Assembly: GCA_964586515.1 (NCBI GenBank)
Contig: CAZPGJ010000004.1
Coordinates: 85,701-149,700, forward strand
Origin: an uncultured Dehalococcoidales bacterium
GTDB taxonomy: Bacteria > Chloroflexota > Dehalococcoidia > GIF9 > AB-539-J10
Reading direction: 5' to 3'
DNA: 64,000 nt
Positions 5,677 to 61,983 of the stretch are shown here, piece after piece. The position numbers and the translations under genes are program-made. How positions within the stretch are numbered: position 1 is the stretch's first letter; the number at the start of each line of letters is the position of its first letter. The notes beneath the pieces were generated by a model. That model was not told where the DNA came from and did no database searches. It saw only the letters and a program-made list of their open reading frames with translations.

Positions 5677-6996
5677 TCACGTTTCGCCACATTCGAGCCT
5701 GTAGTCGCAGTAAGAGCACATCCACGAGGGGCATTTGGGAAGCAGCAGTGGCGATGTCGCCTTTTCCAAAAGCTCAAGCCGGCGTAATGCTTCAGCTTTA
5801 ACAGCATTCAAATTCCTGAAGTTTACATCGTAGACCATCAGCTTGGCATCTTCTTTGGGAACTCTAACATAGTAGAGCAACAGCCTGCCTTTTGTGTTCT
5901 CTGTCAAGGCACAGTCGAATCCCAGGCGGAGGAAGTAATGAGAGAATGTACTGGGCAAGCGTTCCCTTTCCACTAGTGAAGAAAATTTTGGGCCGCGCAG
6001 GATGGTGGGCAGGTTCTGCCAGATTTGGACCAGGTCGGCCAGTGGTGTATGCTTCACGGGAATCCTCTGCGCTTCGCCCGGGGCACCGTAGCGTAATGAA
6101 TCACGGAGTGCATCAATAAAGCCACGCTCATCCATGGAACGAAGATACTCTTCCTTCTCTTCCCGGACTCCTTCACTCAACTTAAGGCGCTCAAAATATG
6201 CTTTGCGGGGGAAGACAATATCGTTGATGCCAAACACTTGGGATGGTTGAGCCCCAGCCATTTTGCTGAGGAGTTGCTCGCAAGTTGTGCTATCGACATA
6301 AATTTCCCCGGCTAAATCAGCTATCTCATGCGATGCCGGCACTGACGTGGTTGCGCAGTCGCATACCTGCGAGTAATCACACTGCCTGTTGAACCAGGGG
6401 CAAACGGGAAGATTGCTGGGGTCGTTGGAAATTAGCGCTTGCACCAGGAGGTCTCGTCTCCGCCGCATTTCCTCTCGAATTGCTTCCAGGTCCGGGAAGG
6501 TAACGTGGTAGACAACCAGGGGAGACGGTGATTCCTCCGCGGGGCGCTGATAGATGATGATTTCTCCCTCGTGGACATTGACCATAGCACAGTACATACC
6601 CAATTGCTCGATATAAGTTGGCCTGTATTGCAATAAGTCCTTCGTGTCTATAGGTGTAGAGGTGGTCTTGACCTCTACGGGAATCTTTTCGTAGATATCA
6701 ATCTTGCCCACAATGCCCTCGGCTTCTACAAATTGCTCCAGGTATTCTTCGCTGGATACGGCTGAGCCGAAGGTCTTGTGAAAGCCGGTGCCGGCCCACA
6801 TAAGCTGCTGTTTCTCCAGAGGCGGAACGATTTCAGGATACTTTCTCCTGAAGTAAGCCTGTTTGAGGTTAAGCAAGTCGGTTACCGAGATGCGATAGGG
6901 AGGTCGGCGTGTCTTTAAGCTTTGCATTAAGGCATCCTTGACGGAGCGGTTCGCCTCAATGTGGGAAACATAAGATGCGATGTCAAAGTCACCCAT
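5677..6996 (-). CDS. tandem Cas4/RecB-like PD-(D/E)xK nuclease-domain protein with two C-terminal Cys4 clusters
   Basis: 439 aa; first half has GKIDIYEK...PVEVKTT (D..ExK) and ends LPVCPWFNRQCDYSQVCDC; second half ends LPKCPSWMCSYCDYRLEC, i.e. an internal duplication of a Cas4-like Fe-S nuclease module. Confidence 0.5.
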   Translation of the reverse strand: MGDFDIASYVSHIEANRSVKDALMQSLKTRRPPYRISVTDLLNLKQAYFRRKYPEIVPPLEKQQLMWAGTGFHKTFGSAVSSEEYLEQFVEAEGIVGKIDIYEKIPVEVKTTSTPIDTKDLLQYRPTYIEQLGMYCAMVNVHEGEIIIYQRPAEESPSPLVVYHVTFPDLEAIREEMRRRRDLLVQALISNDPSNLPVCPWFNRQCDYSQVCDCATTSVPASHEIADLAGEIYVDSTTCEQLLSKMAGAQPSQVFGINDIVFPRKAYFERLKLSEGVREEKEEYLRSMDERGFIDALRDSLRYGAPGEAQRIPVKHTPLADLVQIWQNLPTILRGPKFSSLVERERLPSTFSHYFLRLGFDCALTENTKGRLLLYYVRVPKEDAKLMVYDVNFRNLNAVKAEALRRLELLEKATSPLLLPKCPSWMCSYCDYRLECGET

Positions 6997-7119
6997 TGTT
7001 GTACCTTATTATTGTATCTTGTCGCAAAAATAACTTCATTATGTCACTGCGAGCTAAAGTCCCTTTCCTTGATTGGTAGAGGGGAAAAAGCTCGCCAACT
7101 CCTGTCCCTGAACCCCCCT

Positions 7120-7215
7120 GTCATTGCGAGGCCCGATTTATCGGGCCGAAGCAATCTCCTCTCCCTTGACGGGAGAGGATTAAGGTGAGGGTGATAGGCG
7201 AAGCAATCTCAATTC
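7120..7215. repeat. palindromic intergenic repeat of the GTCATTGCGAG/GAAGCAATCTC family with two hairpins
   Basis: gtcattgcgagg, cccgatttatcggg hairpin, cgaagcaatctc twice, cctctccc/gggagagg hairpin. Confidence 0.7.
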
Positions 7216-8299
7216 ACCTCCACGCCCTCAGTCGCCTGAAGGCTTCGAGTTTCTCCTTATCTCCGATTTTGGCTTTCTCCACCGCCTGGGCCAGAAACTG
7301 GATGCTGCTATCGTAGGTCTTCCTGTCCACAGGATAAGGATAGCCGTCTTTGCCGCCATGGGCAAAACTGTAGCTGGCCGGGTCGCGCAGGCTAACAGGA
7401 GTATCGTAGACCAGCTCTGAAATAAGACTCAGGGCGCGGAGCGTTTTAGGTCCTATACCCTCCAGGGCTAGCAGTGATTCAAAGTTCTGCGGCTTATGTT
7501 CATAAGCTGTGAGGAAAATCTTGCCCAGCCGGTCGGGGTGAATATCTTCCAGGCTGATATAAGATCGCTGGGGCAAGTTCAAGGTCTTCAGCCTCTTTAG
7601 CTGACCGACAATTTTATTTGGCTTGTCTTCGGCAGCAACCTGGGCAATGACCTCCCTCACCTTTGCGCTCTCTAAAGCCACCAGATTTAATGCTTCGCCC
7701 CTGGCCTGGGAGCAGATAGCCGCCTCGGGCTCGCAAACAAAATCGCTGACTTTCTCCCCCAGCCAGTGATAGCGCCGCGCATAGCGGTTAACCTCGTTCA
7801 TACCTTGCTGAATGACTGCCCAGGAGCCGTCTCTGGTGAAGAAGAAACTGTGGTGGTAGAGCTGGTAGCCGTCCTGAAGTGCGGAATTATCCACCTTGGC
7901 CGACATCCGGCTGGCATAGACCAGAGACGACGGATTGACCTTCAGCAGGTGCCCGCTGTTTTCTATCTCGGCAGGAGTTTTCCGTGAAGTCCTGCCCTTG
8001 CCACCGGCCACGAACAAGCCCAGCTCTCTTTCCAGTCCTCTCATTCCTTCTTTTATGGCGCCGCACACGGTAGTGGTAACGCCGCTGGAATGCCAGTCAT
8101 AGCCCAGGACACAGCCGAAAGCCTGGAACCAGAAAGGGTCGGAGAGGCGGTGCAGCATCTCCCCGGTGCCAAACTCCGTTACCGTAACAACGGTAATCTC
8201 CCGGGCAAGCTGGGACATCCGCCCGAACAACCACGGCGGCACCTTACCGTAATGCAAGGGTAAATTGGCGATCCCTGTCCTCTGTCCCGAGCTAGGCAT
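7214..8299 (-). CDS. DUF763-like protein with helix-hairpin-helix motif
   Basis: 361 aa; GIGPKTLRAL HhH-like motif; recollection of the DUF763 family, not verifiable without a search. Confidence 0.4.
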   Translation of the reverse strand: MPSSGQRTGIANLPLHYGKVPPWLFGRMSQLAREITVVTVTEFGTGEMLHRLSDPFWFQAFGCVLGYDWHSSGVTTTVCGAIKEGMRGLERELGLFVAGGKGRTSRKTPAEIENSGHLLKVNPSSLVYASRMSAKVDNSALQDGYQLYHHSFFFTRDGSWAVIQQGMNEVNRYARRYHWLGEKVSDFVCEPEAAICSQARGEALNLVALESAKVREVIAQVAAEDKPNKIVGQLKRLKTLNLPQRSYISLEDIHPDRLGKIFLTAYEHKPQNFESLLALEGIGPKTLRALSLISELVYDTPVSLRDPASYSFAHGGKDGYPYPVDRKTYDSSIQFLAQAVEKAKIGDKEKLEAFRRLRAWR

Positions 8300-8466
8300 C
8301 TCCTGCTCTAGGTATATTATACAACAGCGTTTGTCCCAATAGCAGCGGTCTTTTGATATTGAAGGCTGTGCGCATTAGTCGTCGTATGGACTGCTGACCC
8401 AAAAACGAATTTCGTATATACTAAGTTATATGAAATGGCGGTTTTTCAAAAACGGGGTAATTCATA

Positions 8467-11067
8467 ATGACCTTGCATAGCATACTAAAATCGAAAGTTG
8501 CGGAATGGAGAGACTCAAATTATAAAACAGAGTATCCGGTCATTTCCGAAATTCTCAACTTTAACTACGATTCCGAGACTCAAACCTTACGTTTCTTACG
8601 AAAAGCTCAATTTGAAGCCCTTGAAACTTACTGGTACTTAAGACTTATTGAAAAAACTCCGCATATTTTTGATTTATATAAAAGCCTCTTTCTACCAGAA
8701 GCCCTTTTAGATACTTTGGGTATTAAACTAACTGATGAAGATTGGAAAAAAGTCGCTATTTCTGGAGGTGGGATAGACTCAATATTTGAAAAGATAAGAA
8801 ATGACGATAACTTTGTAAGGAAATATAGACTGGAAGCTCTTAGGGAGACACTTATCTTAAGCTACCCAAGTTATATCCTGGCCTTGGCAATGGGAGCTGG
8901 CAAAACTATTTTGATTGGCACAATTATCGCTACTGAATTTGCAATGGCTCTTGAATATCCCGAGGATAACTTTCTTAAAAATGCCCTGGTATTCGCACCA
9001 GGTAAGACCATCTTAGGAGCATTAAAAGAGTTATCGGATGTCCCCTATGAAAATATATTACCTAAAAGATTTCATAAACAATTCATAACCACTGTAAAAT
9101 TTACCTATACTCGTGATGGCGAAAAAGACATTCCGATAATCAAAGGCTCAAGTTTTAATATCGTAGTAACCAATACCGAAAAGATTAGGATACAAAAACA
9201 ATCTATAACCAAATCTTTAATTAGAGATTTATTTGTTGACCCATCCAGAGAAGATGAGGTGAAGGAGGCGATAGCCAATCAGAGACTGCAAACAATTGCC
9301 TCACTTCCAAATCTTGCTATCTTTTCTGATGAAGCACACCATACCTATGGACTGGCACTCGGTGAAGAACTGAAGAGAGTGAGACAGACAGTTAATTATT
9401 TGTCAGAAAAAACAAATGTTTTAGTTGTGGTAAACACTACTGGGACCCCATATTATAAAAGGCAAATCCTTAAAGATGTTATTTATTGGTATGGTCTATC
9501 ACAAGGAATAAAAGATGGAATATTGAAAGAAGTCCGAGGCAATATTGTATCCTATCCCGAAGTAACCGATAGAGATTTCCTAAAAGATATTATTGCCGAT
9601 TTCTTCAAGAATTATAAAGATATAAAAATCTATGATGGCAGTCCTTCTAAACTGGCGATATATTTTCCCCAAATAGAGGATTTAAAGAATGCCAAACCAG
9701 TTGTTGAGAAAAACTTAATAGAACTCGGCTTAGACCCTTCTGTTATTTTAGAGGTGCATAATGAGTCAAAAGAAGCGGTTAAGGATTTGTTTGATAACCG
9801 AATAAATGACCCCCACCTACCTTATCGTATGTTTCTTCTTGTTAACAAAGGGACTGAGGGATGGAACTGCTTATCCCTTTTTTCTACCGCCTTAGCAAGA
9901 AAACTGACAGCAAGTAATAACTTTTGCCTTCAAGCCGCTTCCCGCTGCCTCAGGCAAACCCCTGGCAATATACACAAGGCAAAAATATACCTTTCCAAAG
10001 AAAATGTCGGAATTCTGGATGCCCAACTTAAAGAAACCTACGGCGAATCTCTCGAAGATTTAAATAGAACTCCACAGGATATGAGAAAGGATAGATTAAT
10101 TTTAAGAAAAGTAGAAATACCACCTGTCTCACTCAAAAAGAAGATTCAAAAAGTCCTGCCCAAAGAATTGCTGTTAGATATTAATGAAATAGCGTTTAAG
10201 AAGATTGAGGGAGAAAAAGAGAAGTTTAGAAAGACCATTCATAGCCTTGATGAAATTCCTCAGAGGAAGGGAGTCTTAATTTTTGTAAGAGAAGAGGAGA
10301 TAGAAATTATTGAAGATTTTGTGGATAGTTATACCTTTGCTGTGGAACTATCAAGTCTTTACCGCCTACCCCTTATGTTGATATATGACAAATTAAAAGA
10401 GTTGTATCCTCAAGGCGAAATCCCTGAAAGTGAGGCGATTGAACTTAAAGGGCAAATAGAAGAGAAGGTAAGAAACTACGAGGTAAAAGAGGAAGAGGTA
10501 GAAGTTGCTCTGGCTCTTATAAGACCTGAAGGTTTCAATAAGGAAGAAAAAGACGGCAAGAGCATATATGTAACCGAGATAGTCTATCATAAAGACAAGC
10601 AGAAATACCTATTAAAGTGGGAGGAGTTTAAGACTAAATTCAAGAGAGACTTCGGCTTCCACTATAATCCCTATAAATTTGATTCTTCTCCTGAGAAGGA
10701 TTTTTTTACTGGGCTACTTGGGATTTTGAACGAAGACCCGGCAGATATTGAAGACATCTATTATACCGGTGGCATGGATGACCCAAGCAAGACGGAATTT
10801 CTCTTTGAGTATAGAGGCAAGGATGGCAGGTATCATAACTATTCCCCTGATTTTCTGATAAGAAGGAAAAATGGAAAAGTGATAATCGTGGAGGTAAAAG
10901 CGGAACGCTTCAAAGAGGAAGAGAAGGAAAAGGAGATGAGAAGGATTGAAGGACTAAATCCTGATAGATTGAAGTATGAAATTCTAGAGACCAAAGGGGA
11001 ACAACTAACTTTTGAGAATTGGGGTAAAGTTAGAGAAGCGATATATGCGTACGGAAAGAAAAAATGA
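8467..11067 (+). CDS. res: Type III restriction enzyme Res-like subunit (SF2 helicase + C-terminal PD-(D/E)xK endonuclease)
   Basis: 866 aa; Walker A LAMGAGKT, DEAH box (FSDEAHH), TGTP, QAASRCLRQ motif VI; C-terminal YSPDFLI...VIIVEVKAERF nuclease motif; AT-rich codon usage. Confidence 0.75.
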   Translation: MTLHSILKSKVAEWRDSNYKTEYPVISEILNFNYDSETQTLRFLRKAQFEALETYWYLRLIEKTPHIFDLYKSLFLPEALLDTLGIKLTDEDWKKVAISGGGIDSIFEKIRNDDNFVRKYRLEALRETLILSYPSYILALAMGAGKTILIGTIIATEFAMALEYPEDNFLKNALVFAPGKTILGALKELSDVPYENILPKRFHKQFITTVKFTYTRDGEKDIPIIKGSSFNIVVTNTEKIRIQKQSITKSLIRDLFVDPSREDEVKEAIANQRLQTIASLPNLAIFSDEAHHTYGLALGEELKRVRQTVNYLSEKTNVLVVVNTTGTPYYKRQILKDVIYWYGLSQGIKDGILKEVRGNIVSYPEVTDRDFLKDIIADFFKNYKDIKIYDGSPSKLAIYFPQIEDLKNAKPVVEKNLIELGLDPSVILEVHNESKEAVKDLFDNRINDPHLPYRMFLLVNKGTEGWNCLSLFSTALARKLTASNNFCLQAASRCLRQTPGNIHKAKIYLSKENVGILDAQLKETYGESLEDLNRTPQDMRKDRLILRKVEIPPVSLKKKIQKVLPKELLLDINEIAFKKIEGEKEKFRKTIHSLDEIPQRKGVLIFVREEEIEIIEDFVDSYTFAVELSSLYRLPLMLIYDKLKELYPQGEIPESEAIELKGQIEEKVRNYEVKEEEVEVALALIRPEGFNKEEKDGKSIYVTEIVYHKDKQKYLLKWEEFKTKFKRDFGFHYNPYKFDSSPEKDFFTGLLGILNEDPADIEDIYYTGGMDDPSKTEFLFEYRGKDGRYHNYSPDFLIRRKNGKVIIVEVKAERFKEEEKEKEMRRIEGLNPDRLKYEILETKGEQLTFENWGKVREAIYAYGKKK

Positions 11068-11074
11068 AGATTAA

Positions 11075-12733
11075 ATGAAGATTAAAGGAATCACTCTGCA
11101 TAACTTTAGATCAATTAAGGAGCAAATATTTAACCTTAATGACTATTCCTTATTAATAGGAGCAAACAATTCAGGAAAAACAAATATAATTGACGCTTTG
11201 AGGATTTTCTACGAGAAAGAAAAATCCGATAAAGAAGACTTCCCTAAACTTGAGACTGGTGACCAGGAAAGCTGGATTGAAATCGAGTTCCATCTAACTG
11301 ATGATGAATTAGCAAATTTGAGAGATGACTATAAACAACCTAATAATACGCTGCAAGCAAGAAAGTATTTGAAGTCTTCACAACCAAACAGAGTAAAGTC
11401 TAATCAAAGTAACATTTATGGGTATGAAGGAGGTAATCTTTCAAACAATCTTTTCTATGGTGCTAAAAACATTTCAGAGGCAAAGTTAGGGGATGTGGTT
11501 TATATTCCGGAAGTCGCTAAGGTAGATGAATATACCAAATTGAGCGGTCCCTCTGCTTTTAGAGATTCCCTAAATTTTGTGGTAAAGAAAGTTGTAAAGA
11601 ACAGCCCATCTTTTGAATCTTTGAGTGAATCATTCACAGATTTCAATGAGAAATTTAGAACCGAGGTTTCTAAAGACGGTACTTCAATACAAAATTTCAT
11701 TGATGATGTTAATAAAGAAATTAAAGACTGGGATGTATCTTTTGGTGTAGAAATTAATCAGATTAAACCAGAGGAAATAATAAAGAATTTAGTAAGTCAT
11801 TATTTGGAAGATAAAAATTTAGAGGATCAAAAATTAGATGCAAGTTCTTTTGGACAGGGACTTCAAAGGCATCTAATCTATACTCTGATAAAGTTATCTG
11901 CTAAGTACAAGGATATTCCAATAAAGAAAGAAAGAAAAGAGTTCGCCCCTGATTTCACCCTAATTCTTTTTGAAGAACCTGAGGCATTTCTACATCCTGC
12001 CCAACAAGAGATTTTAAATTTGAGCCTAAGAGAACTTTCATCGGGAAATACTCAACAAGTTTTAATTTCTACGCACTCTCCGCTTTTTGTGAGTAAAAAT
12101 GTAGAAGATATCCCATCTATTTTGAAACTTACGAAAGATAAGGCTGAAACAATAATTCACCAAATAGACAAGGATAGTTTACAAGAAATTTTAAAAGAGA
12201 ATAAGAAGTTAAAAGAGATTTTGGGGGACGAAATAACCGATAAAGATATGGAGGAAGAATCTATTCGCTACTCATTATGGCTAGATTCTGAAAGATGTTC
12301 AGCTTTTTTTGCTGATACTGTCCTTATATGTGAAGGAGCTACTGAAAAAACTTTGATAGACTATCTAGTAAAGAACAATAGAATAAACCTTCAGAATAAG
12401 CAAGCCTACATCCTAGATGCAATGGGAAAGTATAACATCCATAGATATATGAATTTATTTAGTAATCTTGGTATTAAACATTCAATTTTGTTTGATGGCG
12501 GTAACGACAAAGACAGGAATAAAAAGATAAATGAGTTTATAGAAAGCAATAAAAATAAATATACTTTAAAGTTACACTCATTTGAGGGTGAATTAGAGGA
12601 CTTTTTAGAAATTGATAAGGTAAATGATAGATACAAAAAACCTTTAAATGTAATGTGGCATTACAAGAAAAACAAAATAAAACAAGAAAAAATTGATGGA
12701 TTGATGAAGATAATCGAAGACTTAATGGAGTAG
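11075..12733 (+). CDS. OLD-family ATP-dependent endonuclease (ABC-type ATPase + TOPRIM), PARIS/Old-like
   Basis: 552 aa; Walker A GANNSGKTN, Walker B LILFEEPEAFLHP, H-loop LISTHSP; C-terminal TOPRIM VLICEGATEKTLIDYL ... LFDGGNDKD; 7 bp after res stop and 14 bp before mod start. Confidence 0.8.
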   Translation: MKIKGITLHNFRSIKEQIFNLNDYSLLIGANNSGKTNIIDALRIFYEKEKSDKEDFPKLETGDQESWIEIEFHLTDDELANLRDDYKQPNNTLQARKYLKSSQPNRVKSNQSNIYGYEGGNLSNNLFYGAKNISEAKLGDVVYIPEVAKVDEYTKLSGPSAFRDSLNFVVKKVVKNSPSFESLSESFTDFNEKFRTEVSKDGTSIQNFIDDVNKEIKDWDVSFGVEINQIKPEEIIKNLVSHYLEDKNLEDQKLDASSFGQGLQRHLIYTLIKLSAKYKDIPIKKERKEFAPDFTLILFEEPEAFLHPAQQEILNLSLRELSSGNTQQVLISTHSPLFVSKNVEDIPSILKLTKDKAETIIHQIDKDSLQEILKENKKLKEILGDEITDKDMEEESIRYSLWLDSERCSAFFADTVLICEGATEKTLIDYLVKNNRINLQNKQAYILDAMGKYNIHRYMNLFSNLGIKHSILFDGGNDKDRNKKINEFIESNKNKYTLKLHSFEGELEDFLEIDKVNDRYKKPLNVMWHYKKNKIKQEKIDGLMKIIEDLME

Positions 12734-12747
12734 GAAAAGGTTGAATT

Positions 12748-14568
12748 ATGAAAGAAGAGAATAAAATTAAGATAACGCCAGCTAAAGGACGCCCAATGCT
12801 TCACTGGGTAGGTAAAAAGCCTTTGGATTATATCAAAGGCTTTCCTGCTCAGTTGGTAGAAGTCTTTGACCCGTTGAATAGTGGGCAAAGAATTGAAACG
12901 CCAACTTATGATGAATTAAAGGATAACTGGCAAAATCTACTCTTTCACGGAGACAATAAAGATGTTTTAGCCACGCTTCTGGAATTAGGATTTAGAGGGA
13001 AGATTGATTTGATTTATATCGACCCGCCATTTATGAGTGGGGCGGACTATGTAAGAAAGGTTCAGTTGAGAGGAATGAAGAAGCCGGAGACCCTAGAAGT
13101 TGATGAGGTATCGCTACTTCAACAAGTTATGTACGAGGACATATGGAACAACGATAGTTACCTACAGTTCATGTATGAGAGACTAATGCTAATGAAAGAA
13201 CTTCTATCTGAAGCAGGAAGTATCTACATTCATTTAGATTGGCATGTTGGACATTACGTGAAATTAGTTATGGACGAGATTTTTGGACGGGAGAATTTCA
13301 GGAATGAAATTGTGTGGAATAAGGGCTTTAGAGGCACAGAATCAAAAAACATTTACCAGCATGCTCATGATGTCATTTTTTGGTATTCCAAAGGCGAAGG
13401 CTACATTTGGAATCAGGTAGGACAACCATACAGAGATGAAGATTTAAAGCGTTACAACAAGGTGGATGAATATGGGAAAAGATACGCATTGATAAAAAGA
13501 AGGAAAACCGATGGCACAATTTATTATGGGAAGACTTATCCCAAAGAAGAGGGCAAAAGAATTGACGATGTTATAAGTCATGTAGCGATCATGGCATCTA
13601 CCGCTACAGAGCGTACAGGCTTCGAGACCCAGAAACCTACCGATTTATTGGAGATTTTCATCGCTACCTCTTGTCGCTCTAATAGCCTTGTCCTTGATTG
13701 CTTCATCGGCTCAGGAACTTCTGCTAGTGTTGCCCAAAAACTTGGCAGGCGATGGATTGGTTGCGATATAAATAAAGGCGCAATCCAGATGACAAGCAAA
13801 ATAGTGCAAAAGATAATCCTTGAACAGGTCAAGAAAGGAGAGACAAAATATCCTACATTTGCTATTTACAAGGTCAATGATTATGATTTGCAACTTTTAA
13901 AAACCGAGGCAATTGAACTTGCCGTCCAGCATATTGGTATTCAAAGGATAAGAACTGATACATTTTTTGATGGATACCTAGGGAAAAACTTAGTAAAAAT
14001 TATTGACTTCAATCATCCATTAACACTTTTAGATTTACAACTCCTTCAGGACGAATTAAAGAAAAGACCAGATGAAGATAGAGATATAACCATCGTCTGT
14101 CTTGGTAAGGAATTAGCCATTGACCCTTGGATTGATGAGTGGAATAAGAAACATCCGGTAAATAAGATTAAGGTAATTGAGTTAAAGACAGATAAAAAAT
14201 ACGGCAGTTTCTTAATCCACAAACCAGCGGAGGCAAAGATAGAGATTCTTCGCTCTGCTCAGAATGACAGAGTGGCAGTAGTAACTATACAGGATTTCAT
14301 CTCTCCAACGATAATTGAGCGTCTTAACATTGATAATAAACTCTTCAAAGTAAAAATCCCTGATTTTAGATGTATGATTGATACAGTTTTGATTGACAAT
14401 AATTACGATGGCAAAACCTTCCATATTGTCTATTCAGATGTCCCAGAAAGAAAAGATGACTTAGTCAAAGGAAAATATGAAATCAAAATTCCAAAGTCAA
14501 AAACAAAAGTCGCAGCAAAAATCATTGACATGCTTGGAGAAGAGGTTATAAATGTCTTTGAGGCATAA
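12748..14568 (+). CDS. mod: beta-class N6-adenine/N4-cytosine DNA methyltransferase (Type III Mod-like)
   Basis: 606 aa; motif IV LIYIDPPF precedes motif I FIGSGTSA (beta-class order); about 220 aa putative TRD between them; long C-terminal extension. Confidence 0.8.
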   Translation: MKEENKIKITPAKGRPMLHWVGKKPLDYIKGFPAQLVEVFDPLNSGQRIETPTYDELKDNWQNLLFHGDNKDVLATLLELGFRGKIDLIYIDPPFMSGADYVRKVQLRGMKKPETLEVDEVSLLQQVMYEDIWNNDSYLQFMYERLMLMKELLSEAGSIYIHLDWHVGHYVKLVMDEIFGRENFRNEIVWNKGFRGTESKNIYQHAHDVIFWYSKGEGYIWNQVGQPYRDEDLKRYNKVDEYGKRYALIKRRKTDGTIYYGKTYPKEEGKRIDDVISHVAIMASTATERTGFETQKPTDLLEIFIATSCRSNSLVLDCFIGSGTSASVAQKLGRRWIGCDINKGAIQMTSKIVQKIILEQVKKGETKYPTFAIYKVNDYDLQLLKTEAIELAVQHIGIQRIRTDTFFDGYLGKNLVKIIDFNHPLTLLDLQLLQDELKKRPDEDRDITIVCLGKELAIDPWIDEWNKKHPVNKIKVIELKTDKKYGSFLIHKPAEAKIEILRSAQNDRVAVVTIQDFISPTIIERLNIDNKLFKVKIPDFRCMIDTVLIDNNYDGKTFHIVYSDVPERKDDLVKGKYEIKIPKSKTKVAAKIIDMLGEEVINVFEA

Positions 14569-14649
14569 AAGTGAAAAAACGACCCACTTCATGTAACATA
14601 GCATAAAGGCTCGCTCTCGCTCATCCAAATTTTTGCTTCGCAAAAACTT

Positions 14650-14835
14650 CCTTTAACTGTTGCGACACGTGAGATTGATGGGCTGGTTTAATGGGACCTG
14701 TCTTGAAGAATTTGTGGAAGCAATGAAATGAGGATGGGCGCTCGTGATGCTTATAGACGGTGGGGCGAAGTCGGGGAGCGGGACAATAGTTCGCTATTCT
14801 ATCGCGCTGGCCAGCCTGCTGGGCAAGGGAATAAA
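14650..14835 (+). pseudogene. degenerate duplicate of hicB 3' end + hicA 3' end + rtcA 5' end (33 codons then stop)
   Basis: Near-identical DNA to 15182-15225 and 15415-15545; the rtcA-like fragment encodes VMLIDGGAKSGSGTIVRYSIALASLLGKGINS*. Confidence 0.7.
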
Positions 14836-15016
14836 CTCGTAGTTGGCATTCGAATTTCAGCAATGATAGAATTCATAAGCTGGGGAGCTAAAGGGGAGGA
14901 ATATAAGGAGTTTCTAGAAGGTATACACGGCCTGGCAATTATTGCTGAACGTCGAGATCAGCCTACTATAGCCTTTGAGGAACTCAAAAAGAAGAGAAGG
15001 CAGGAGGGAATGAGCT

Positions 15017-15223
15017 ATGAAGTTCATCATAACAATTGAACAGGATGAAGATGGCGTATTCGTTGTCGAATGTCCAAGTATTCCAGGGTGCGTAAGTCAA
15101 GGTAAAACGGAGCAAGAAGCCTTAGAAAATATTGAAGATGCTATTAAGCAGTGTTTGGAGGTACGAGCAGAGAAAGGAATGCCTTTAACTGTTATGACAC
15201 GTGAGATTGAGATTCTGGTTTAA
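15017..15223 (+). CDS. hicB: HicB-family antitoxin
   Basis: 68 aa UPF0150/HicB-like (FVVECPSIPGCVSQGKTEQEALENIEDAI); immediately upstream of hicA with overlapping stop/start. Confidence 0.7.
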   Translation: MKFIITIEQDEDGVFVVECPSIPGCVSQGKTEQEALENIEDAIKQCLEVRAEKGMPLTVMTREIEILV

Positions 15224-15444
15224 TGAAACTCCCTCTTCTCAGTGGACGTGAGGTAACGAAGATTTTTGGAAGGCTGGGCTGGGAGATAGCGCGCCAGAAA
15301 GGGAGTCACATTATTTTGGTAAAAGAGGGTCACATTGCAACATTGTCTATTCCTGATCACAAAGAGGTTGCGAGAGGAACGTTAAGGAAACTAATCACCC
15401 GTGCTGGTATAACCGTCGAAGAGTTTGTGGAAGCAATGAAATGA
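15223..15444 (+). CDS. hicA: HicA-family mRNA interferase toxin
   Basis: 73 aa; SGREVTKIFGRLGWEIARQKGSHIIL matches the HicA/YcfA signature. Confidence 0.8.
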   Translation: MKLPLLSGREVTKIFGRLGWEIARQKGSHIILVKEGHIATLSIPDHKEVARGTLRKLITRAGITVEEFVEAMK

Positions 15445-15456
15445 GGGTGGGCGCTC

Positions 15457-16491
15457 GTGATGCTTATAGATGGTGGGGCGAAGTCGGGGAGCGGGACAAT
15501 AGTCCGTTATTCAATGGCGCTGGCCAGCCTGCTGGGTAGGGAAATAAGGATAGAGAACATCAGGGCTGGGAGGGATAAGCCAGGGCTGAGGGCACAGCAT
15601 CTCAAAGTAGTGCAAGCGTGCCAGGAGATGTGCCACGCGGTGGTGCAAAACGCTGCGGTGGGCTCTAATGAGATTACCTACACACCCGGAGAAAGGTTCA
15701 ACGGAGGAGAGTATAGCTGGGACATAGGGACGGCGGGCTCAACCACCATGATGGCCCAGACGCTTTTGCCTCTCGCGTGCTTTGCCCGAAAGCCCTCCAA
15801 ATTCAGGCTGGAAGGTGGGCTGTTTCAGGATTTTGCCCCCTCTGCTTATCACACGAAGTTTGTTCTGCTTCCGCTTCTAAAGCAGATGGGTGTCCGGGCT
15901 GAACTTGACATAATTCGCCCCGGCTATGTGCCCAGAGGCGGTGGAATTATAGAAGTTAGAGTCGAGCCGGCCGGGAAACTGAAGCCACTAAATCTTACTG
16001 AGCAGGGGGAGATTTTCAATATCAAGGGCATAGCGCTTTCCTCGCGTTTGAAAGAAAAGAGAGTAAGTCAGAGGATGGCTGAGGAATGCCAGAGGGTATT
16101 AAGCTCTTATGGGTATAAAGCGGAAATTGAGGAAATCGAAGACGAAAGCTCCCTCCAAGAAGGAGCAGCCCTGGCGATATATGGCGAGACGAGCCTGGGT
16201 AACCGGATAGGTTCCGACAGGGCCGGGAGGCCAGGCAGAAGCTCGGAATCCATAGGAAGATATGTGGCGGAGAGGTTTATAGAGGATGTTAAAATTGGCG
16301 CCGCAGTTGATAGATATATCGCAGACCAGCTCATAATCTATGCTGGCTTAGCCGAGGGGGTCACCAGGTATTCAGTCCCGCGCATTACTGAACATGTGGA
16401 GACAAACCTATGGCTTATCGAGGAATTTCTGGGTGCCAGAACAAAAATTAGTGGCAATCTCCTGGAGATAGAGGGGATTGGCTTTGCCTGA
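15457..16491 (+). CDS. rtcA: RNA 3'-terminal phosphate cyclase
   Basis: 344 aa; N-terminal IDGGAKSGSGTIVRYSMALASLLG and overall RtcA architecture. Confidence 0.85.
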   Translation: MMLIDGGAKSGSGTIVRYSMALASLLGREIRIENIRAGRDKPGLRAQHLKVVQACQEMCHAVVQNAAVGSNEITYTPGERFNGGEYSWDIGTAGSTTMMAQTLLPLACFARKPSKFRLEGGLFQDFAPSAYHTKFVLLPLLKQMGVRAELDIIRPGYVPRGGGIIEVRVEPAGKLKPLNLTEQGEIFNIKGIALSSRLKEKRVSQRMAEECQRVLSSYGYKAEIEEIEDESSLQEGAALAIYGETSLGNRIGSDRAGRPGRSSESIGRYVAERFIEDVKIGAAVDRYIADQLIIYAGLAEGVTRYSVPRITEHVETNLWLIEEFLGARTKISGNLLEIEGIGFA

Positions 16492-16559
16492 AGGCTATCC
16501 GTGATGGATTTGGCAAAAAAGCTGAATTTTGTCACAATAACAGTGATTTCGGGTAAATA

Positions 16560-58723: not shown

Positions 58724-59839
58724 ATGCTCAAAATTTTGCATACCGCTGATATTCACCTCGGGGCGAAGTTCTCGGGTCTGGGAAATAAGGGTGCCTCTCA
58801 ACGTGAGCAGCTGAGAGCTACATTCAAGAATGTTGTTGCTACTGCTATAAATGAAAGGGTAAACATCGTTTTAATTGCCGGGGACCTGTTCGATGCCAAT
58901 CAGCAGCCGCAAGGAAATATAGATTTGGTAATAGAGCAATTTAATTTGCTTGGGTCAAATAATATTCCAGTCTGCCTTATCCCTGGCACGCATGATTCTT
59001 TTGATTCCTCGTCAATTTACAAAAAAGTCGACTTTGAAGGAAAATGCCCCAATCTAAAAAATTTTACTGATGAAAGTATATCCTGCAAAGAGTATCCCGG
59101 TCTTGATTTAACGGTATATGGGAAACCAAATCTAAGTAACAGGTCTTCCATAAGCCCACTGAAAGGGCTCAAACCTTCGACATCAAGTAAGTTTCATATT
59201 GCTATGGCTCATGGGTCATTCTATATTCCAGAAAAGATAGCGGAGGACGACCATGTCTTCAGGCTTGAGGAAGTTAAAGCCAGTGGCATGGATTATCTGG
59301 CGCTGGGGCACTGGCACCGAGTCTATAGTTGCTCAGAGAAGCCTCCAGCCTGGTATTCCGGCCCGCCGGAGTGGATACCTGACCAAACAGAGAGGGGTGG
59401 AGTGCTTTTGATTAGCCTTTCGGATTCAGGTGAGGTTAAGGTTGAACCCAAAAAACTTGGACTTCGTGACTATGATGAAGTAGAGATAGACATGAGTGAA
59501 ATACAAGACATGGCGAAGCTAAAAATGAGAATCTCTGACGGGGCAGACCGGAATCTGGTAAGAAAAGCGACTCTCAGGGGGCTTCGCGATGCCGAACTTA
59601 TAGTAAATCCTGAGGAATTGGAAAATGAATTGGGGGAGAAATTTTTCCATCTTAGTGTTACGGATAGATCCCATCCGAAGTCAGGAGAGGTCACAGAGGA
59701 TGAAGAGCGGTTGATTAGGAATAGGTTTATTAAGCTAATGGAAAGGCAAATTGAAGGCTCGGAAGGGGAAGAGAAAGACATTGCTGAAAATGCTCTTCAG
59801 TATGGCATAGCTCTTCTGGATGGGAAGGAAGTCTTATAA
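58724..59839 (+). CDS. SbcD/Mre11-family DNA repair exonuclease (YhaO-like)
   Basis: Calcineurin-like motifs ILHTADIHLG, GDLFD, GTHD, MAHG. Confidence 0.8.
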   Translation: MLKILHTADIHLGAKFSGLGNKGASQREQLRATFKNVVATAINERVNIVLIAGDLFDANQQPQGNIDLVIEQFNLLGSNNIPVCLIPGTHDSFDSSSIYKKVDFEGKCPNLKNFTDESISCKEYPGLDLTVYGKPNLSNRSSISPLKGLKPSTSSKFHIAMAHGSFYIPEKIAEDDHVFRLEEVKASGMDYLALGHWHRVYSCSEKPPAWYSGPPEWIPDQTERGGVLLISLSDSGEVKVEPKKLGLRDYDEVEIDMSEIQDMAKLKMRISDGADRNLVRKATLRGLRDAELIVNPEELENELGEKFFHLSVTDRSHPKSGEVTEDEERLIRNRFIKLMERQIEGSEGEEKDIAENALQYGIALLDGKEVL

Positions 59840-61983
59840 TGTGGTTGAAAAGGATTGAGCTCAAAAACTTCAAGAGACTTGTTGATTTTCGGACTCAGTT
59901 CAGCCCTGGGATAAATGTGGTCAAAGGTCCCCTAAATGAAATGGGGAAGTCCACTTTGCTTGATGGTATCGTTGTTGCCCTTTTCCATAATCCTAGAAGC
60001 ACTGCGAAGGAGCTTAAAGATTATGTTTCCTGGGGCTCAACCAGGCAGTTTCGAACCAGTCTTGAGTTTGAGGATAAAGGGAACAGATATTTGCTGGAGA
60101 AGGATTTTGACAAAGGAACCGTCAGGCTTATTGATGATAATACGCGAGAAGAGCTTGATACTTTCAAAGAAATTTCAGAGAAAATGGCTGAGCTACTAGG
60201 AACCAATTCTGACAGGCTCTTCTTATGTTCCTCTTGTATTCGTCAAGCCCAGGTAAGTGAAATTTCATCAGGCAAGAAGGAAATTAACGAGAGCTTGGAG
60301 GAGATTGTGAGTGGGGGTAAAGAAAGCACCCTTGCCTCGCAAGTGATACAGAAGCTAGATGATAAAATCTCTGAGATGAGAAAGGGATTGGACAGGCCAG
60401 CGAAAATAAAAGGCAGCTTGGCATCGCTGAGAGATCAACGAGGTGAGTATTTGCGAAAATGCGACGAGGTTAGGAGCGAGGTTTCAAGAGTTGAGACTCA
60501 AAAAATCGAGCTAGTGGAGGTGAACAAGCAGCTGGCTCAGGTAGAAGAGCAATATGAAAATGCCAAGGCTTTATTGGAGAAAAATAGACAGCGTAAAGAA
60601 ATCGAGGCATCTATAGAAAGGTTGACCAGAGATTATAATAGCGTGGAAGAACTACTTAGTAGGATAAAGAACCAGGAGGAAGACTTTAGGAAAGCGGATG
60701 AAGCACTTATGGGTATCGAAGACTTGAAGGATAAGCAACGGGTTTCGGAATTTAGAAAGGGGTTGGATGCAGTCCAGAATAGGCGTGGGGACATCGAGAA
60801 AGACCTAGCTCAACGAGAGAAGGAACTGGCTGGAGCGAAGGAAAAATTGGATAGAAGGAAATCTGTTAGATTTCTCGGTTCAGGGAAAGGCATAGCTACT
60901 TCGATAATAATATTGACGGGAGGGATAATTGGAGCCCTGGTTGGCCCCTTTTACCTCTTGGGGTTGATAATCCTGGGTGTGGTTCTTCTTGCTGTAACTA
61001 TGTGGGCGAGAACTGCCCTCATTCGAGACAAGACTAATATTTCGGGCATTGCAGAGCGTATTCAAAAGATGAAAGTGTCTCTCGGTGAGCTTGGTCAGGA
61101 AGAGCAAGAATTGCTGGCTAAGTCTAAATGTAACACAGTTGCCGAGTTTAATGAGAAAGAAAGAGATTTTTATTATTGGCGCGAGATGAAAGAAAAGGCA
61201 GGAAACCGCTTAGAGGGGATGTTAGGTGGTAAGACAATTCAGGATGCTGAGAGGCAGAAGACTGACGTAGCTAGGAAGTTGGCGGTTGAGGGGGCGAAGC
61301 TTACTGACGATTTAAGAGAAACACGCCTGAGCCCGGAAGAATACATCGAACTAGAAAGGAAGGTTCGGAGCTTAGAGGCCAAGCAAGCTGAGCTTGAGAA
61401 GCAAAAAAGGCGCTGCGAAGTAATCATCGAGCAGGCAAGATTTAATATAGAAGACCAAGTTAGACTCGAAGAGGAACTGGAAGGACTTCAGGAAGCTTTG
61501 AAACATGAAGAGAAAAAGGTGAAGATTTATGGATTAGCTAGGGAGTTTATCTCTAAGGCAAGAACTGAGGTTCTTTCGTCAACTGAGGAAACTTTGGAAA
61601 AAGAAATTCAGAGATATCTGGCTGTCTTTACCAATGGTAAATATAAGCAAGTAAAAGTTAACAAGGAAGCCTTGGAGTTCCGGGTGTATTCGACTGAGAA
61701 AGGGGATTGGGCTAAGCCCGAGGAATTAAGCGGGGGGGTAATTGATGAGTTCTATCTAGCATTTCGGCTCGCCTTCGCAAGGTTGATATTTGGCGATAAG
61801 AAGCCGCCTTTGATACTGGATGACCCTTTTGTTAATTTTGACTCCGTCCGTCTGGCTAACACCCAAAACTTTTTCAAAACACTGGCCTCGGATTATCAAA
61901 TCATCATATTCACGCTGAGTGATTTATACGATAAGGTAGCCGATAATATCATTTTGTTAAGTGAGGAAGAGAGGCTTTTGTGA
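59839..61983 (+). CDS. SbcC/Rad50-like AAA ATPase with central transmembrane segment (YhaN-like)
   Basis: N-terminal Walker A GPLNEMGKSTLL, long coiled coil, internal hydrophobic stretch IIILTGGIIGALVGPFYLLGLIILGVVLLAV, C-terminal signature/D-loop LILDDPF. Confidence 0.8.
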   Translation: MWLKRIELKNFKRLVDFRTQFSPGINVVKGPLNEMGKSTLLDGIVVALFHNPRSTAKELKDYVSWGSTRQFRTSLEFEDKGNRYLLEKDFDKGTVRLIDDNTREELDTFKEISEKMAELLGTNSDRLFLCSSCIRQAQVSEISSGKKEINESLEEIVSGGKESTLASQVIQKLDDKISEMRKGLDRPAKIKGSLASLRDQRGEYLRKCDEVRSEVSRVETQKIELVEVNKQLAQVEEQYENAKALLEKNRQRKEIEASIERLTRDYNSVEELLSRIKNQEEDFRKADEALMGIEDLKDKQRVSEFRKGLDAVQNRRGDIEKDLAQREKELAGAKEKLDRRKSVRFLGSGKGIATSIIILTGGIIGALVGPFYLLGLIILGVVLLAVTMWARTALIRDKTNISGIAERIQKMKVSLGELGQEEQELLAKSKCNTVAEFNEKERDFYYWREMKEKAGNRLEGMLGGKTIQDAERQKTDVARKLAVEGAKLTDDLRETRLSPEEYIELERKVRSLEAKQAELEKQKRRCEVIIEQARFNIEDQVRLEEELEGLQEALKHEEKKVKIYGLAREFISKARTEVLSSTEETLEKEIQRYLAVFTNGKYKQVKVNKEALEFRVYSTEKGDWAKPEELSGGVIDEFYLAFRLAFARLIFGDKKPPLILDDPFVNFDSVRLANTQNFFKTLASDYQIIIFTLSDLYDKVADNIILLSEEERLL

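What the first reader, a model, noticed from the sequence alone, without database searches (positions are those of the whole stretch)
11075..12733. Possible single-chain (fused) PARIS-like or class-1 OLD protein
Both the ATPase and the TOPRIM domains sit in one 552-aa polypeptide. This is shorter than typical fused AriAB but similar to class 1 OLDs. Its position next to an RM system matches the known tendency of PARIS to sit in defence islands and sense anti-restriction factors.
Basis: inference. Interest (0 to 1): 0.6.

Follow-up and report, generated by a model that had tools for sequence, protein, structure and literature searches.

The report
OLD nuclease embedded in restriction-modification operon
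The gene encodes a genuine OLD-family ATPase-nuclease, but it is not PARIS-like and not a stand-alone Class 1 gene: it sits between the restriction and methylase genes of a horizontally acquired Type III-like system, belongs to a subfamily that is often embedded this way, and has lost one metal-binding aspartate in this lineage.

Summary
ORF 11075-12733 (+, 552 aa) carries an ABC ATPase (AAA_15, E=1e-31) and an OLD-like TOPRIM domain (PF20469, E=7e-17). Its predicted fold matches the Class 1 OLD of Thermus scotoductus best, and it aligns to P2 Old.

The PARIS reading is not supported. The TOPRIM domain is OLD-type with no AriB/DUF4435 signal, and AriA models match the ATPase part only, more weakly than the Old model.

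The gene is inside an R-M system, not just next to one. It lies between res (8467-11067) and mod (12748-14568) of a low-GC (0.36 vs about 0.47-0.50) Type III-like island in a variable chromosomal hotspot.

In 66 informative loci with family members, 35 have an R-M or Hma gene as immediate neighbour and 23 are sandwiched. Contexts include Type III in both gene orders, an Eco57I-type methylase system with RadC, Hma and Type I. Relatives of the same res/mod system hold HEPN+MNT, unknown ORFs or nothing in that slot, so OLD looks like swappable cargo.

The window's copy and its sister carry D476G in the TOPRIM DxD metal-A site (78 of 80 members keep D), yet remain under purifying selection (omega about 0.12).

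Verdict: a new variant of a known kind, of moderate interest.

The parts
8467..11067 (+). res: Type III-like restriction subunit (866 aa). SF2 helicase motifs GAGKT (143), DEAH (288) and QAASRCLR (489), plus a C-terminal PD-ExK nuclease motif (PD794...EVK).
   Evidence: Pfam ResIII E=1.4e-6 and a TnsA-like nuclease hit. PADLOC REase_III. Motifs read from the sequence. Homologues named 'type III restriction enzyme' by JGI.
11064..11085 (+). 11-nt tandem duplication (ATGAAGATTAA x2) at the res/old junction. It creates a 4-codon mini-ORF (MKIK*, 11064-11078) whose ATG overlaps the res stop and whose stop overlaps the old ATG.
   Evidence: Sequence read directly. The sister locus L097 has the undisturbed ATGA overlap of res and old.
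11075..12733 (+). old: OLD-family ABC ATPase + TOPRIM protein, 552 aa, GC 0.32.
11075..12091 (+). ABC ATPase domain (residues 1-339) with a helical insertion (about 160-240). K35, E300/E301, H307 and H334 are intact.
   Evidence: Pfam AAA_15/AAA_21. These residues are conserved in 79-80 of the 80 family members (E300 is D in one). Secondary structure from the AF2 model.
12305..12499 (+). OLD-like TOPRIM core (residues 411-475). Carries E420, E424 and D474.
   Evidence: Pfam PF20469 E=7e-17, or 1.5e-17 for the domain alone. Mapped onto P2 Old E398/E402/D453.
12500..12502 (+). Codon GGT = G476, at the position of the second Asp of the DxD metal-A motif (P2 D455, Ts D433, Bp D457). It is D in 78 of 80 family members.
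   Evidence: The role of the residue comes from PMC7049728.
12748..14568 (+). mod: beta-class N6A/N4C DNA methyltransferase (606 aa), with DPPF (motif IV, residue 92) before FIGSG (motif I, residue 319).
   Evidence: Pfam N6_N4_Mtase E=1.8e-44. PADLOC MTase_III E=2.5e-68. Motifs read from the sequence.
14650..14834 (+). Degraded duplicate of the hicA 3' end plus the rtcA 5' end (the intact copy is at 15182-15547). Probable scar at the right edge of the island.
   Evidence: Direct repeats D1 (130 nt, 92%) and D2 (44 nt, 86%). Alignment. The Logan contigs of this island end inside it.

Best explanation
The gene encodes an OLD-family protein: an ABC-ATPase sensor/regulator fused to a TOPRIM nuclease domain, built like a Class 1 OLD. 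It is carried as embedded cargo in the slot between res and mod of a horizontally acquired Type III-like restriction-modification island, and it is co-transcribed with those genes.

I infer that it acts as an autonomous second layer of defence. The R-M enzyme cuts unmodified DNA. The OLD protein, controlled by its ATPase, responds to some infection cue and nicks or degrades nucleic acid, or is otherwise toxic, as described for P2 Old, Vc OLD, HEC-04 and YbjD. Embedding provides co-regulation and co-transfer rather than an obligatory physical partnership.

In the window's lineage the metal-A site of the TOPRIM domain has lost one ligand (D476G). Canonical two-metal cleavage is therefore probably weakened or altered, while the domain remains functionally constrained.

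Shown here: identity, domains, motifs, fold, operon position, recurrence of embedding, swappability of the slot, the substitution, and purifying selection. Inferred: defence function, trigger, substrate and autonomy.
For: Identity: Pfam, PADLOC and PDB hits. AF2 model with pLDDT 82.9, best matched by TsOLD 6P74 (E=5e-19) and then GajA. P2 Old aligns at 24.9% identity, E=3e-15.

Operon: gaps of 7 and 14 nt, same strand, ATGA-type coupling.

Island: GC 0.358 against 0.47-0.50 in the flanks. Close relatives have other cargo between Sir2 and DUF763.

Recurrent embedding: 35 of 66 informative loci have an R-M or Hma neighbour, 29 are tightly coupled and 23 are sandwiched, across Type III (both gene orders), Eco57I-type, Hma and Type I contexts.

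Cargo-like behaviour: relatives of the same Res family hold HEPN+MNT, unknown ORFs or nothing in the res-mod slot. OLD divergence is uncorrelated with Res divergence in the Mod-OLD-Res745 group (rho about -0.1), and RadC-OLD sits in front of two different methylase types. One close homologue (81% identity) is solitary, and distant relatives on plasmids and viral contigs are solitary.

Still functional: dN/dS is 0.13 overall and 0.117 in the TOPRIM part at dS about 0.4.

Precedent: defence genes embedded in modification-based systems, including the ATPase-TOPRIM fusion HEC-04 (bioRxiv 10.1101/2024.01.29.577857).
Against: There is no experimental evidence for defence by this family. In the window-type group, OLD and Res identities track each other (89/90, 77/76, 76/75) and their dS values are equal (0.40 vs 0.37). 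That fits a tighter functional unit as well as simple linkage.

D476G removes a residue whose single mutation abolished P2 Old activity in vivo (PMC7049728), so the nuclease part of the mechanism may not apply to this copy.

The census uses metagenome contigs, my own crude ORF calling, and the 80 best loci out of 406. The fractions are therefore approximate.
Confidence: 0.6

Rival explanations
1. Guard model, like PrrC or PARIS. OLD is held inactive by the Res/Mod complex, or monitors it, and fires when a phage anti-restriction factor disables the R-M enzyme. This is the functional core of the first reader's idea, without PARIS membership.
For: The gene sits inside the R-M operon and the family recurs inside several modification-based systems. 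OLD and Res are co-inherited in the window-type group. The precedent is PrrC in EcoprrI, and other ABC-ATPase systems are triggered by anti-defence proteins. The res-mod slot also holds other abortive-type cargo, HEPN+MNT.
Against: Homologues 74-81% identical sit in unrelated host systems (Type III, Eco57I-type, Hma) or alone. A conserved protein-protein interface with one particular R-M enzyme is therefore unlikely. There is no co-divergence in the Mod-OLD-Res745 group. [quoted passage not shown]
Confidence: 0.2
2. The TOPRIM catalysis is dispensable or lost in this copy. The protein acts through its ATPase domain, with TOPRIM kept for structure, binding or regulation, as reported for E. coli YbjD.
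For: D476G sits at a metal-A ligand that is D in 78 of 80 relatives. The P2 D455A mutant is inactive. YbjD keeps its anti-phage phenotype without Toprim (PMC13261556). All ATPase motifs are intact. The TOPRIM region is still constrained, omega 0.117.
Against: E420, E424 and D474 are all kept. TsOLD metal-A triple mutants still nick DNA, so residual or altered nuclease activity is plausible. Purifying selection on the domain fits retained catalysis equally well.
Confidence: 0.3
3. OLD is an integral third subunit of a three-component R-M enzyme, for example supplying a second strand cut or ATP-dependent processing after Res cleavage.
For: Tight translational coupling. OLD lies between the M and R genes in both gene orders in about 20 loci. 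Res and OLD have equal dS.
Against: Relatives of the same Res family, at 69-91% identity, have other genes or nothing in the slot. The same OLD clade occurs with other R-M types and alone. Res and Mod carry complete catalytic motifs of their own.
Confidence: 0.07
4. It is a fused single-chain PARIS (AriA-AriB) system.
For: PADLOC AriA models match residues 1-339 (E=1.2e-31). Fused PARIS variants are known to exist (PMC12392090).
Against: Old scores 200 bits over the full length, against 109 bits for AriA on the ATPase part only. The C-terminal domain alone hits Old and GajA in PADLOC with no AriB model among the 25 hits listed, and only PF20469 in Pfam. The top structural matches are TsOLD, GajA and the retron Eco8 OLD.
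Confidence: 0.03

Closest known systems
Class 1 OLD nucleases (P2 Old, Thermus scotoductus OLD 6P74, Vibrio cholerae OLD, E. coli YbjD/OldB)
   Same: Single chain of about 530-590 aa with an ABC ATPase carrying a helical insertion, followed by an OLD-type TOPRIM. There is no helicase or retron partner. The best PADLOC model is Old, the best structural match is TsOLD, and it aligns directly to P2 Old. P2 K37/H306/H332/E398/E402/D453 map to K35/H307/H334/E420/E424/D474.
   Different: Class 1 is defined by an isolated genomic context (PMC10568477, PMC13261556). This gene, and about half of its subfamily, is operonically embedded in R-M or Hma systems. Sequence identity to P2 Old is only about 25-27%. 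The residue equivalent to P2 D455 is Gly in this copy.
HEC-04 and other embedded ABC-ATPase defences (Payne et al. 2024, 'guilt-by-embedding')
   Same: An ATPase-TOPRIM fusion nested, in the same orientation, inside a DNA-modification-based defence operon. Some family members here are themselves next to HmaB or HmaC.
   Different: No HEC-04 model appears among the 25 best PADLOC hits listed (all at E<=3.5e-20); only HEC-01A matches part of the ATPase. The positions of the residues mutated in HEC-04 (K62, E319, D375/D377) differ from K35/E420/D474 here, so its layout is different. Payne et al. surveyed Hma, BREX, DISARM and Type I R-M as hosts, not Type III.
PrrC/RloC and rlo genes embedded in Type I hsd loci
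   Same: An ABC-ATPase-type accessory effector gene located between R-M subunit genes. This is the model for 'backup' defence.
   Different: PrrC is an anticodon nuclease with a different effector domain, and its physical dependence on EcoprrI has been demonstrated. Here the host is Type III-like, the effector is TOPRIM, and no dependence has been shown.
Gabija GajA (Class 2 OLD)
   Same: Same two-domain fold (Foldseek E=6e-19). The DxD and EGxxE motifs align.
   Different: No GajB/UvrD helicase lies downstream in the window, and the protein is of Class 1 size. One family member (L029/L043) does have a UvrD+PD-(D/E)xK protein upstream.
PARIS (AriA/AriB, Class 4 OLD)
   Same: ABC ATPase plus TOPRIM logic, and a conceptual link to anti-restriction.
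   Different: The TOPRIM is OLD-type, not AriB/DUF4435-type. AriA similarity is limited to the generic ATPase core.

Membership tests
OLD family nuclease (general) | N-terminal ABC ATPase with Walker A, Walker B, signature and H-loop | tested here: met
   AAA_15 E=1e-31. GANNSGKT, GQGLQR, LILFEEPE and STHS are present and conserved in 79-80 of the 80 relatives.
OLD family nuclease (general) | C-terminal OLD-type TOPRIM domain | tested here: met
   PF20469 E=7e-17, or 1.5e-17 for the domain alone. Foldseek top hits are TsOLD, GajA and Eco8 OLD.
OLD family nuclease (general) | Complete metal-A triad (Glu plus DxD; P2 E398/D453/D455) | tested here: not met
   E420 and D474 are present, but position 476 is Gly in the window and its sister. 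78 of 80 family members have Asp.
OLD family nuclease (general) | Metal-B ligands and the catalytic Lys/Arg in the C-terminal region | tested here: inconclusive
   E424 (= P2 E402) is conserved. P2 D541/E543/K550 do not align reliably by sequence.
Class 1 OLD | [quoted passage not shown] | tested here: not met
   The gene lies between res and mod with 7- and 14-nt gaps. 35 of 66 informative family loci have an R-M or Hma neighbour.
Class 1 OLD | Class 1 size and architecture (no Class 2 extra helical domain); closest to P2 Old and TsOLD | tested here: met
   552 aa. PADLOC Old scores 200 bits against 114 for GajA. TsOLD is the top structural hit, although GajA is nearly equal.
Class 2 OLD (Gabija) | [quoted passage not shown] | tested here: not met
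   The downstream gene is an N6_N4 methyltransferase.
Class 3 OLD (retron) | Adjacent reverse transcriptase and ncRNA | tested here: not met
   The neighbours are Res and Mod, with no RT domain in the flanking ORFs. An ncRNA was not searched for.
Class 4 OLD (PARIS) | AriA-type ATPase with an AriB (DUF4435-type) TOPRIM, either separate or fused | tested here: not met
   AriA models match the ATPase only, at 109 bits, below Old. The C-terminal domain alone gives Old then GajA in PADLOC, with no AriB model among the 25 hits listed, and only PF20469 in Pfam.
HEC-04 (Hma-embedded ATPase-TOPRIM) | Sequence membership of the HEC-04 family | tested here: inconclusive
   No HEC-04 model appears among the 25 best PADLOC hits (all at E<=3.5e-20). 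64 weaker hits were not listed.
PrrC-like guard of an R-M enzyme | Physical association with, and silencing by, the host R-M complex | not testable with these tools
   This needs pull-downs, genetics or a multimer structure prediction.
Type III R-M (host system) | Mod: beta-class methyltransferase with motif IV (DPPF) before motif I (FxGxG) | tested here: met
   DPPF at residue 92 and FIGSG at residue 319. PADLOC MTase_III E=2.5e-68.
Type III R-M (host system) | Res: SF2 helicase motifs plus a C-terminal PD-(D/E)xK nuclease | tested here: met
   GAGKT, DEAH, QxxSRxxR and PD...EVK are present. Pfam ResIII. The PADLOC REase_III hit is weak, E=1.2e-5.

The most novel reading that the evidence does not exclude
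The junction between the restriction and methylase genes of Type III-like (and other) R-M systems may be a dedicated, exchangeable slot for 'guard' effectors: OLD here, HEPN+MNT or unknown ORFs in relatives. These effectors would fire when the R-M enzyme is neutralised. That would extend the PrrC paradigm to Type III systems and define a fifth, R-M-embedded context class of OLD nucleases. The window's D476G lineage would be a naturally re-tuned effector.
Probability: 0.2. Interest if true: 0.75.

Novelty: new variant of a known kind. Interest (0 to 1): 0.5.

Why it matters
OLD nucleases are currently classified by genomic context: alone, with GajB, with retrons, or as PARIS. Class 1 is described as isolated genes of uncertain standing as a defence. 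A well-conserved OLD subfamily (50-89% identity in these loci) found across many bacterial and archaeal phyla and habitually nested inside R-M and Hma operons does not fit that scheme.

It extends 'guilt-by-embedding' to Type III-like R-M systems. It also offers a natural test of whether embedded OLDs back up, or depend on, the surrounding R-M enzyme.

The res-mod slot with alternative cargo, including ORFs with no known domain, is a source of candidate defence genes. The natural D476G variant, kept under purifying selection, bears on whether the TOPRIM catalytic site is needed for OLD function, a question recently raised by E. coli YbjD.

Tried and rejected
- **PARIS / fused AriAB:** rejected on domain-level searches.
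- **Gabija and retron classes:** rejected, because no helicase or RT neighbour is present.
- **Pseudogene or decaying gene because of D476G:** rejected. dN/dS is 0.13 (0.117 in TOPRIM), the ORF is intact in two lineages that have diverged to dS 0.4, and the identical protein occurs in two independent read-set assemblies.
- **Sequencing error at codon 476:** rejected. The same GGT codon is present in L097 at 89% protein identity.
- **Compensation of G476 by D478:** unlikely, since the sister has N478.
- **Integral R-M subunit:** disfavoured by the variable slot content and the context switching.
- **Phage-borne element:** no close relative was found in the phage records or IMG/VR. Only homologues of 22-40% identity appear, including P2 Old.
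- **tRNA or att-site integration:** there is no tRNA in the window and no flanking inverted repeats of note. Only the hicA/rtcA partial duplication was found.
- **Promoter and terminator scan of the operon:** uninformative, with counts close to those of the shuffles.
- **Metal-B ligands:** they could not be mapped by sequence alignment.
Full report
**1. Observation**

Pfam finds AAA_15 over residues 1-339 (E=1e-31), AAA_21 (E=6e-20) and the OLD-like TOPRIM domain PF20469 over residues 411-475 (E=7e-17). The PADLOC 'Old' model matches residues 1-499 at E=1.4e-59.

The ABC-ATPase motifs can be read directly: Walker A GANNSGKT, signature-like GQGLQR, Walker B LILFEEPE, H-loop STHS. So can the TOPRIM glutamate in CEGATEK. 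About 1,900 database proteins match at E<=1e-10.

**2. What kind of OLD protein it is**

An AlphaFold2 model built from a 44-sequence family alignment is confident (pLDDT 82.9, pTM 0.79). Its best PDB match is the Class 1 OLD of Thermus scotoductus (6P74, E=5e-19). Gabija GajA follows closely, then retron Eco8 OLD, and then Rad50/SMC heads.

Phage P2 Old aligns directly at 24.9% identity over residues 1-474 (E=3e-15). In a joint alignment the experimentally defined P2 residues map as follows (residue roles from PMC7049728):

| P2 Old | Window protein |
|---|---|
| K37 | K35 |
| D299 | E300 |
| H306 | H307 |
| H332 | H334 |
| E398 | E420 |
| E402 | E424 |
| D453 | D474 |
| D455 | G476 |

The PARIS reading fails. 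AriA models match only the ATPase part and score about half of the Old model. The C-terminal 181 residues on their own hit Old and then many GajA models in PADLOC, with no AriB model among the 25 hits listed, and only PF20469 in Pfam. There is no UvrD-type helicase or reverse transcriptase next to the gene. By architecture the protein is Class-1-like.

**3. The degenerate DxD**

Position 476 is Asp in 42 of the 44 aligned homologues and in 78 of 80 distinct family members from all fetched loci. The window's protein and its closest relative (P0002/L097, 89% identity) read D-G-G there, and no other sequence does; one homologue, P0041, has E at the first position instead (EGD). The codon is GGT in both, and the identical protein was assembled independently from two read sets, so this is not a sequencing error.

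This residue is a metal-A ligand (Ts D433, Bp D457). The single P2 D455A mutant lost in-vivo activity, and TsOLD metal-A triple mutants lost 12-15-fold degradation but could still nick (PMC7049728).

The gene is not decaying. Between the two DGG copies dS is 0.40 and dN/dS is 0.13 overall, 0.129 in the ATPase and 0.117 in the TOPRIM/C-terminal part. The domain is still needed, either with altered or weaker catalysis or for a non-catalytic role. The second option would fit E. coli YbjD, whose Toprim domain is dispensable for its anti-phage phenotype (PMC13261556).

**4. Context in the window**

The gene is the middle one of three co-directional, tightly spaced genes.

- **res (8467-11067):** 866 aa, with SF2 helicase motifs GAGKT, DEAH and QAASRCLR and a C-terminal PD...EVK nuclease motif.
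- **old (11075-12733).**
- **mod (12748-14568):** 606 aa, a beta-class N6A/N4C methylase with DPPF before FIGSG. PADLOC MTase_III gives E=2.5e-68.

The block has GC 0.358 (old alone 0.319), against 0.47-0.50 in the flanks.

The flanks are ordinary chromosome of a Chloroflexota/Dehalococcoidia-like bacterium. PNPase, IF-2 and NusA are present, and AdhE and DUF763 have matches of at least 90% identity in such MAGs. Two close relatives share the flanks: purM-purH-QRPTase-Sir2 on one side and DUF763 plus a PD-(D/E)xK protein on the other. Between Sir2 and DUF763 they carry different cargo, namely an ABC transporter with HNH and P63C genes, or unknown genes. The island therefore occupies a variable hotspot.

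Its right edge carries a degraded duplicate of the hicA 3' end and the rtcA 5' end.

**5. Context across the family**

Homologues are 50-89% identical and scattered over Stahlbacteria, Nanoarchaeota, Actinomycetota, Hydrothermia, Caldisericia, Bathyarchaeota, Planctomycetia and Ignavibacteria. That distribution implies horizontal transfer.

I collected 83 distinct family members with flanking DNA, called ORFs, clustered the neighbours and annotated cluster representatives. The architectures were:

| Group | Arrangement | Loci |
|---|---|---|
| A | Res866 - OLD - Mod | window, L097-99, L017, L018; L025 has Mod downstream only |
| B | Mod - OLD - Res (about 745 aa or about 850 aa; ResIII, REase_III) | at least 14 loci |
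| C | RadC - OLD - HSDR_N_2/N6_Mtase/Eco57I methylase, sometimes with an S subunit | 7 loci |
| D | Hma: YhcG - OLD - HmaB (E=7e-111); OLD - HmaC (E=1e-65) | L028; L040, L041 |
| E | OLD - Type I HsdR | L026, L057 |
| F | UvrD+PD-(D/E)xK helicase-nuclease upstream | one member (L029/L043) |
| G | Solitary, or next to other defence genes (LmuB, AlwI, Type II MTases, PglX, ThsB) or housekeeping genes | the remainder |

Of 66 loci with an informative neighbour, 35 have an R-M or Hma gene immediately adjacent. In 29 the neighbour is within 30 bp on the same strand, and 23 are sandwiched on both sides. Among members at least 60% identical to the window's protein, the figure is 21 of 29.

More distant relatives (38-43% identity) on plasmids and viral contigs are solitary. 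The broader clade therefore behaves like Class 1 and a sub-clade is R-M-embedded.

**6. Cargo or subunit?**

Three relatives of the window's Res, at 91%, 79% and 69% identity, have something else between res and mod: HEPN+MNT, nothing, or two ORFs with no Pfam domain.

- In group B, OLD divergence is uncorrelated with Res or Mod divergence (Spearman -0.12 and -0.03). Examples are OLD 62% with Res 83%, and OLD 88% with Res 67%.
- In group C, RadC and OLD stay linked while the downstream methylase is of two types that are only 46% identical.
- In group A, OLD and Res identities do track each other (89/90, 77/76, 76/75) and share the same dS. Mod is uncoupled (dS 1.2), as expected if the methylase gene, or its target-recognition part, is exchanged.

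Taken together this favours a swappable accessory module that stays linked to its upstream neighbour, rather than an obligatory R-M subunit. It does not exclude a functional guard relationship.

**7. Mechanism**

Best-supported reading, confidence about 0.6: this is an autonomous OLD-type second-line effector that is co-expressed and co-transferred with an R-M system. Its ATPase senses or regulates, and its TOPRIM acts on nucleic acid.

Shown here: identity, fold, motifs, operon position, recurrent embedding, slot variability, the D476G change and purifying selection. Inferred: defence function, trigger, substrate and independence from Res/Mod.

Rivals:
- A PrrC-like guard of the R-M enzyme (0.2).
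- An integral third subunit (0.07).
- A fused PARIS (0.03).

A cross-cutting question is whether TOPRIM catalysis is dispensable in this lineage (0.3). The review PMC12707154 notes that T7/T3 anti-restriction does not inhibit Type III enzymes, which weakens a simple Ocr-sensing story.

**8. Comparison with what is known, and novelty**

The reviews define Class 1 OLDs as single genes not near other defence genes (PMC10568477; PMC13261556). This subfamily violates that definition.

Embedding of defence genes in modification-based systems is established. Examples are PrrC in EcoprrI, and Payne et al. 2024 with the ATPase-TOPRIM fusion HEC-04 in Hma. However, Payne et al. surveyed Hma, BREX, DISARM and Type I R-M, not Type III, and no HEC-04 model appears among the best PADLOC hits listed for this protein.

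I therefore rate it a new variant of a known kind: a Class-1-like OLD clade that is habitually embedded in R-M systems, here in a Type III-like operon, with a natural metal-site variant. Interest is moderate (0.5). It is unlikely to astonish a specialist. It does challenge the context-based OLD classification and offers a clean experimental system for testing backup versus guard function.

**9. Caveats**

- The neighbourhood fractions come from metagenome contigs, the 80 best of 406 pattern-confirmed loci, and a simple greedy ORF caller.
- The trees are neighbour-joining.
- dN/dS is pairwise Nei-Gojobori.
- Metal-B ligands could not be placed by sequence.
- No experiment supports a defence function for this clade.

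Noticed in passing
window 14650-14834 vs 15182-15547; hicA 15223-15444: A degraded duplicate (130 nt at 92% identity, plus 44 nt at 86%, with about 181 bp missing) of the 3' end of a HicA toxin gene (Pfam E=9.5e-18) and the first ~30 codons of rtcA lies exactly at the right edge of the low-GC island. It is probably an insertion or recombination scar. ORF 14728-15039 is probably spurious. The Logan contigs of the island end inside this repeat.
   Followed up: partly
window 11064-11085: An 11-nt tandem duplication (ATGAAGATTAA x2) at the res/old junction creates a mini-ORF MKIK* that bridges the res stop and the old start by two ATGA overlaps. The sister locus L097 has the simple res/old ATGA overlap. 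This may affect translational coupling.
   Followed up: partly
L014 8567-9288; L016 8601-9907; L015 8585-11482: In relatives of the window's Res/Mod system, the res-mod slot holds HEPN+MNT (L014) or two ORFs of 82 and 348 aa with no Pfam hit (L016). In L015 it is empty, and mod is followed by DUF1016/YhcG, an unknown 241-aa ORF and RadC. The unknown ORFs are candidate defence genes by 'guilt-by-embedding'.
   Followed up: partly
L002, L003, L005, L012, L019, L021 (upstream neighbour of old); L015 11530-12201: A RadC (UPF0758_N + JAB) gene is co-inherited with OLD (85-97% identity, tracking OLD) in front of two different Eco57I-type methylases. RadC also appears next to a Res/Mod system that lacks OLD. 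Its role is unexplained.
   Followed up: partly
L005 11572-13251; L012 11907-12629: A 559-aa ORF with no Pfam or PADLOC hit lies between the Eco57I-type methylase and the S-like subunit in L005, downstream of OLD. In L012 a 240-aa ORF with no Pfam hit follows the S subunit.
   Followed up: no
window 12748-14568 vs L099 1781-3622: Mod is far more diverged between the window and its sister (dS 1.2, 76% aa identity) than Res (dS 0.37) or OLD (dS 0.40). This suggests replacement or recombination of the methylase or its target-recognition part within an otherwise co-inherited island.
   Followed up: partly
window 5677-8299 (- strand); L102/L103 9001-11425: DUF763 (361 aa) and a 439-441-aa PD-(D/E)xK protein with weak Cas4-like similarity form a conserved adjacent pair in the window and in close relatives, right next to the variable hotspot. 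Function is unknown.
   Followed up: no
window about 8300-16500 vs L102 3884-9000 and L103 4153-9000: The interval between Sir2 and DUF763 is a strain-variable hotspot. The window has Res-OLD-Mod plus hicA and rtcA. L102 has an ABC transporter, HNH and P63C. L103 has an ABC transporter and two unknown ORFs.
   Followed up: partly
L029/L043 2139-4865: One family member (65% identity) has a 908-aa UvrD helicase + PD-(D/E)xK (AddB/Cas4-like) protein 58 bp upstream. This is a Gabija-like pairing but in reversed gene order.
   Followed up: no
L084 (OLD ORF called at 1012 aa): In this locus the OLD-homologous ORF is about 1,012 aa by my ORF caller. It is either a fusion with another domain or an artefact, and an SNF2-type helicase lies upstream.
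   Followed up: no
window 59839-61983 (+): A 714-aa SMC_N/AAA_23 protein (SbcC/Rad50-like) directly follows a 371-aa ORF (58724-59839). This is probably a housekeeping SbcCD pair, unrelated to the finding.
   Followed up: no
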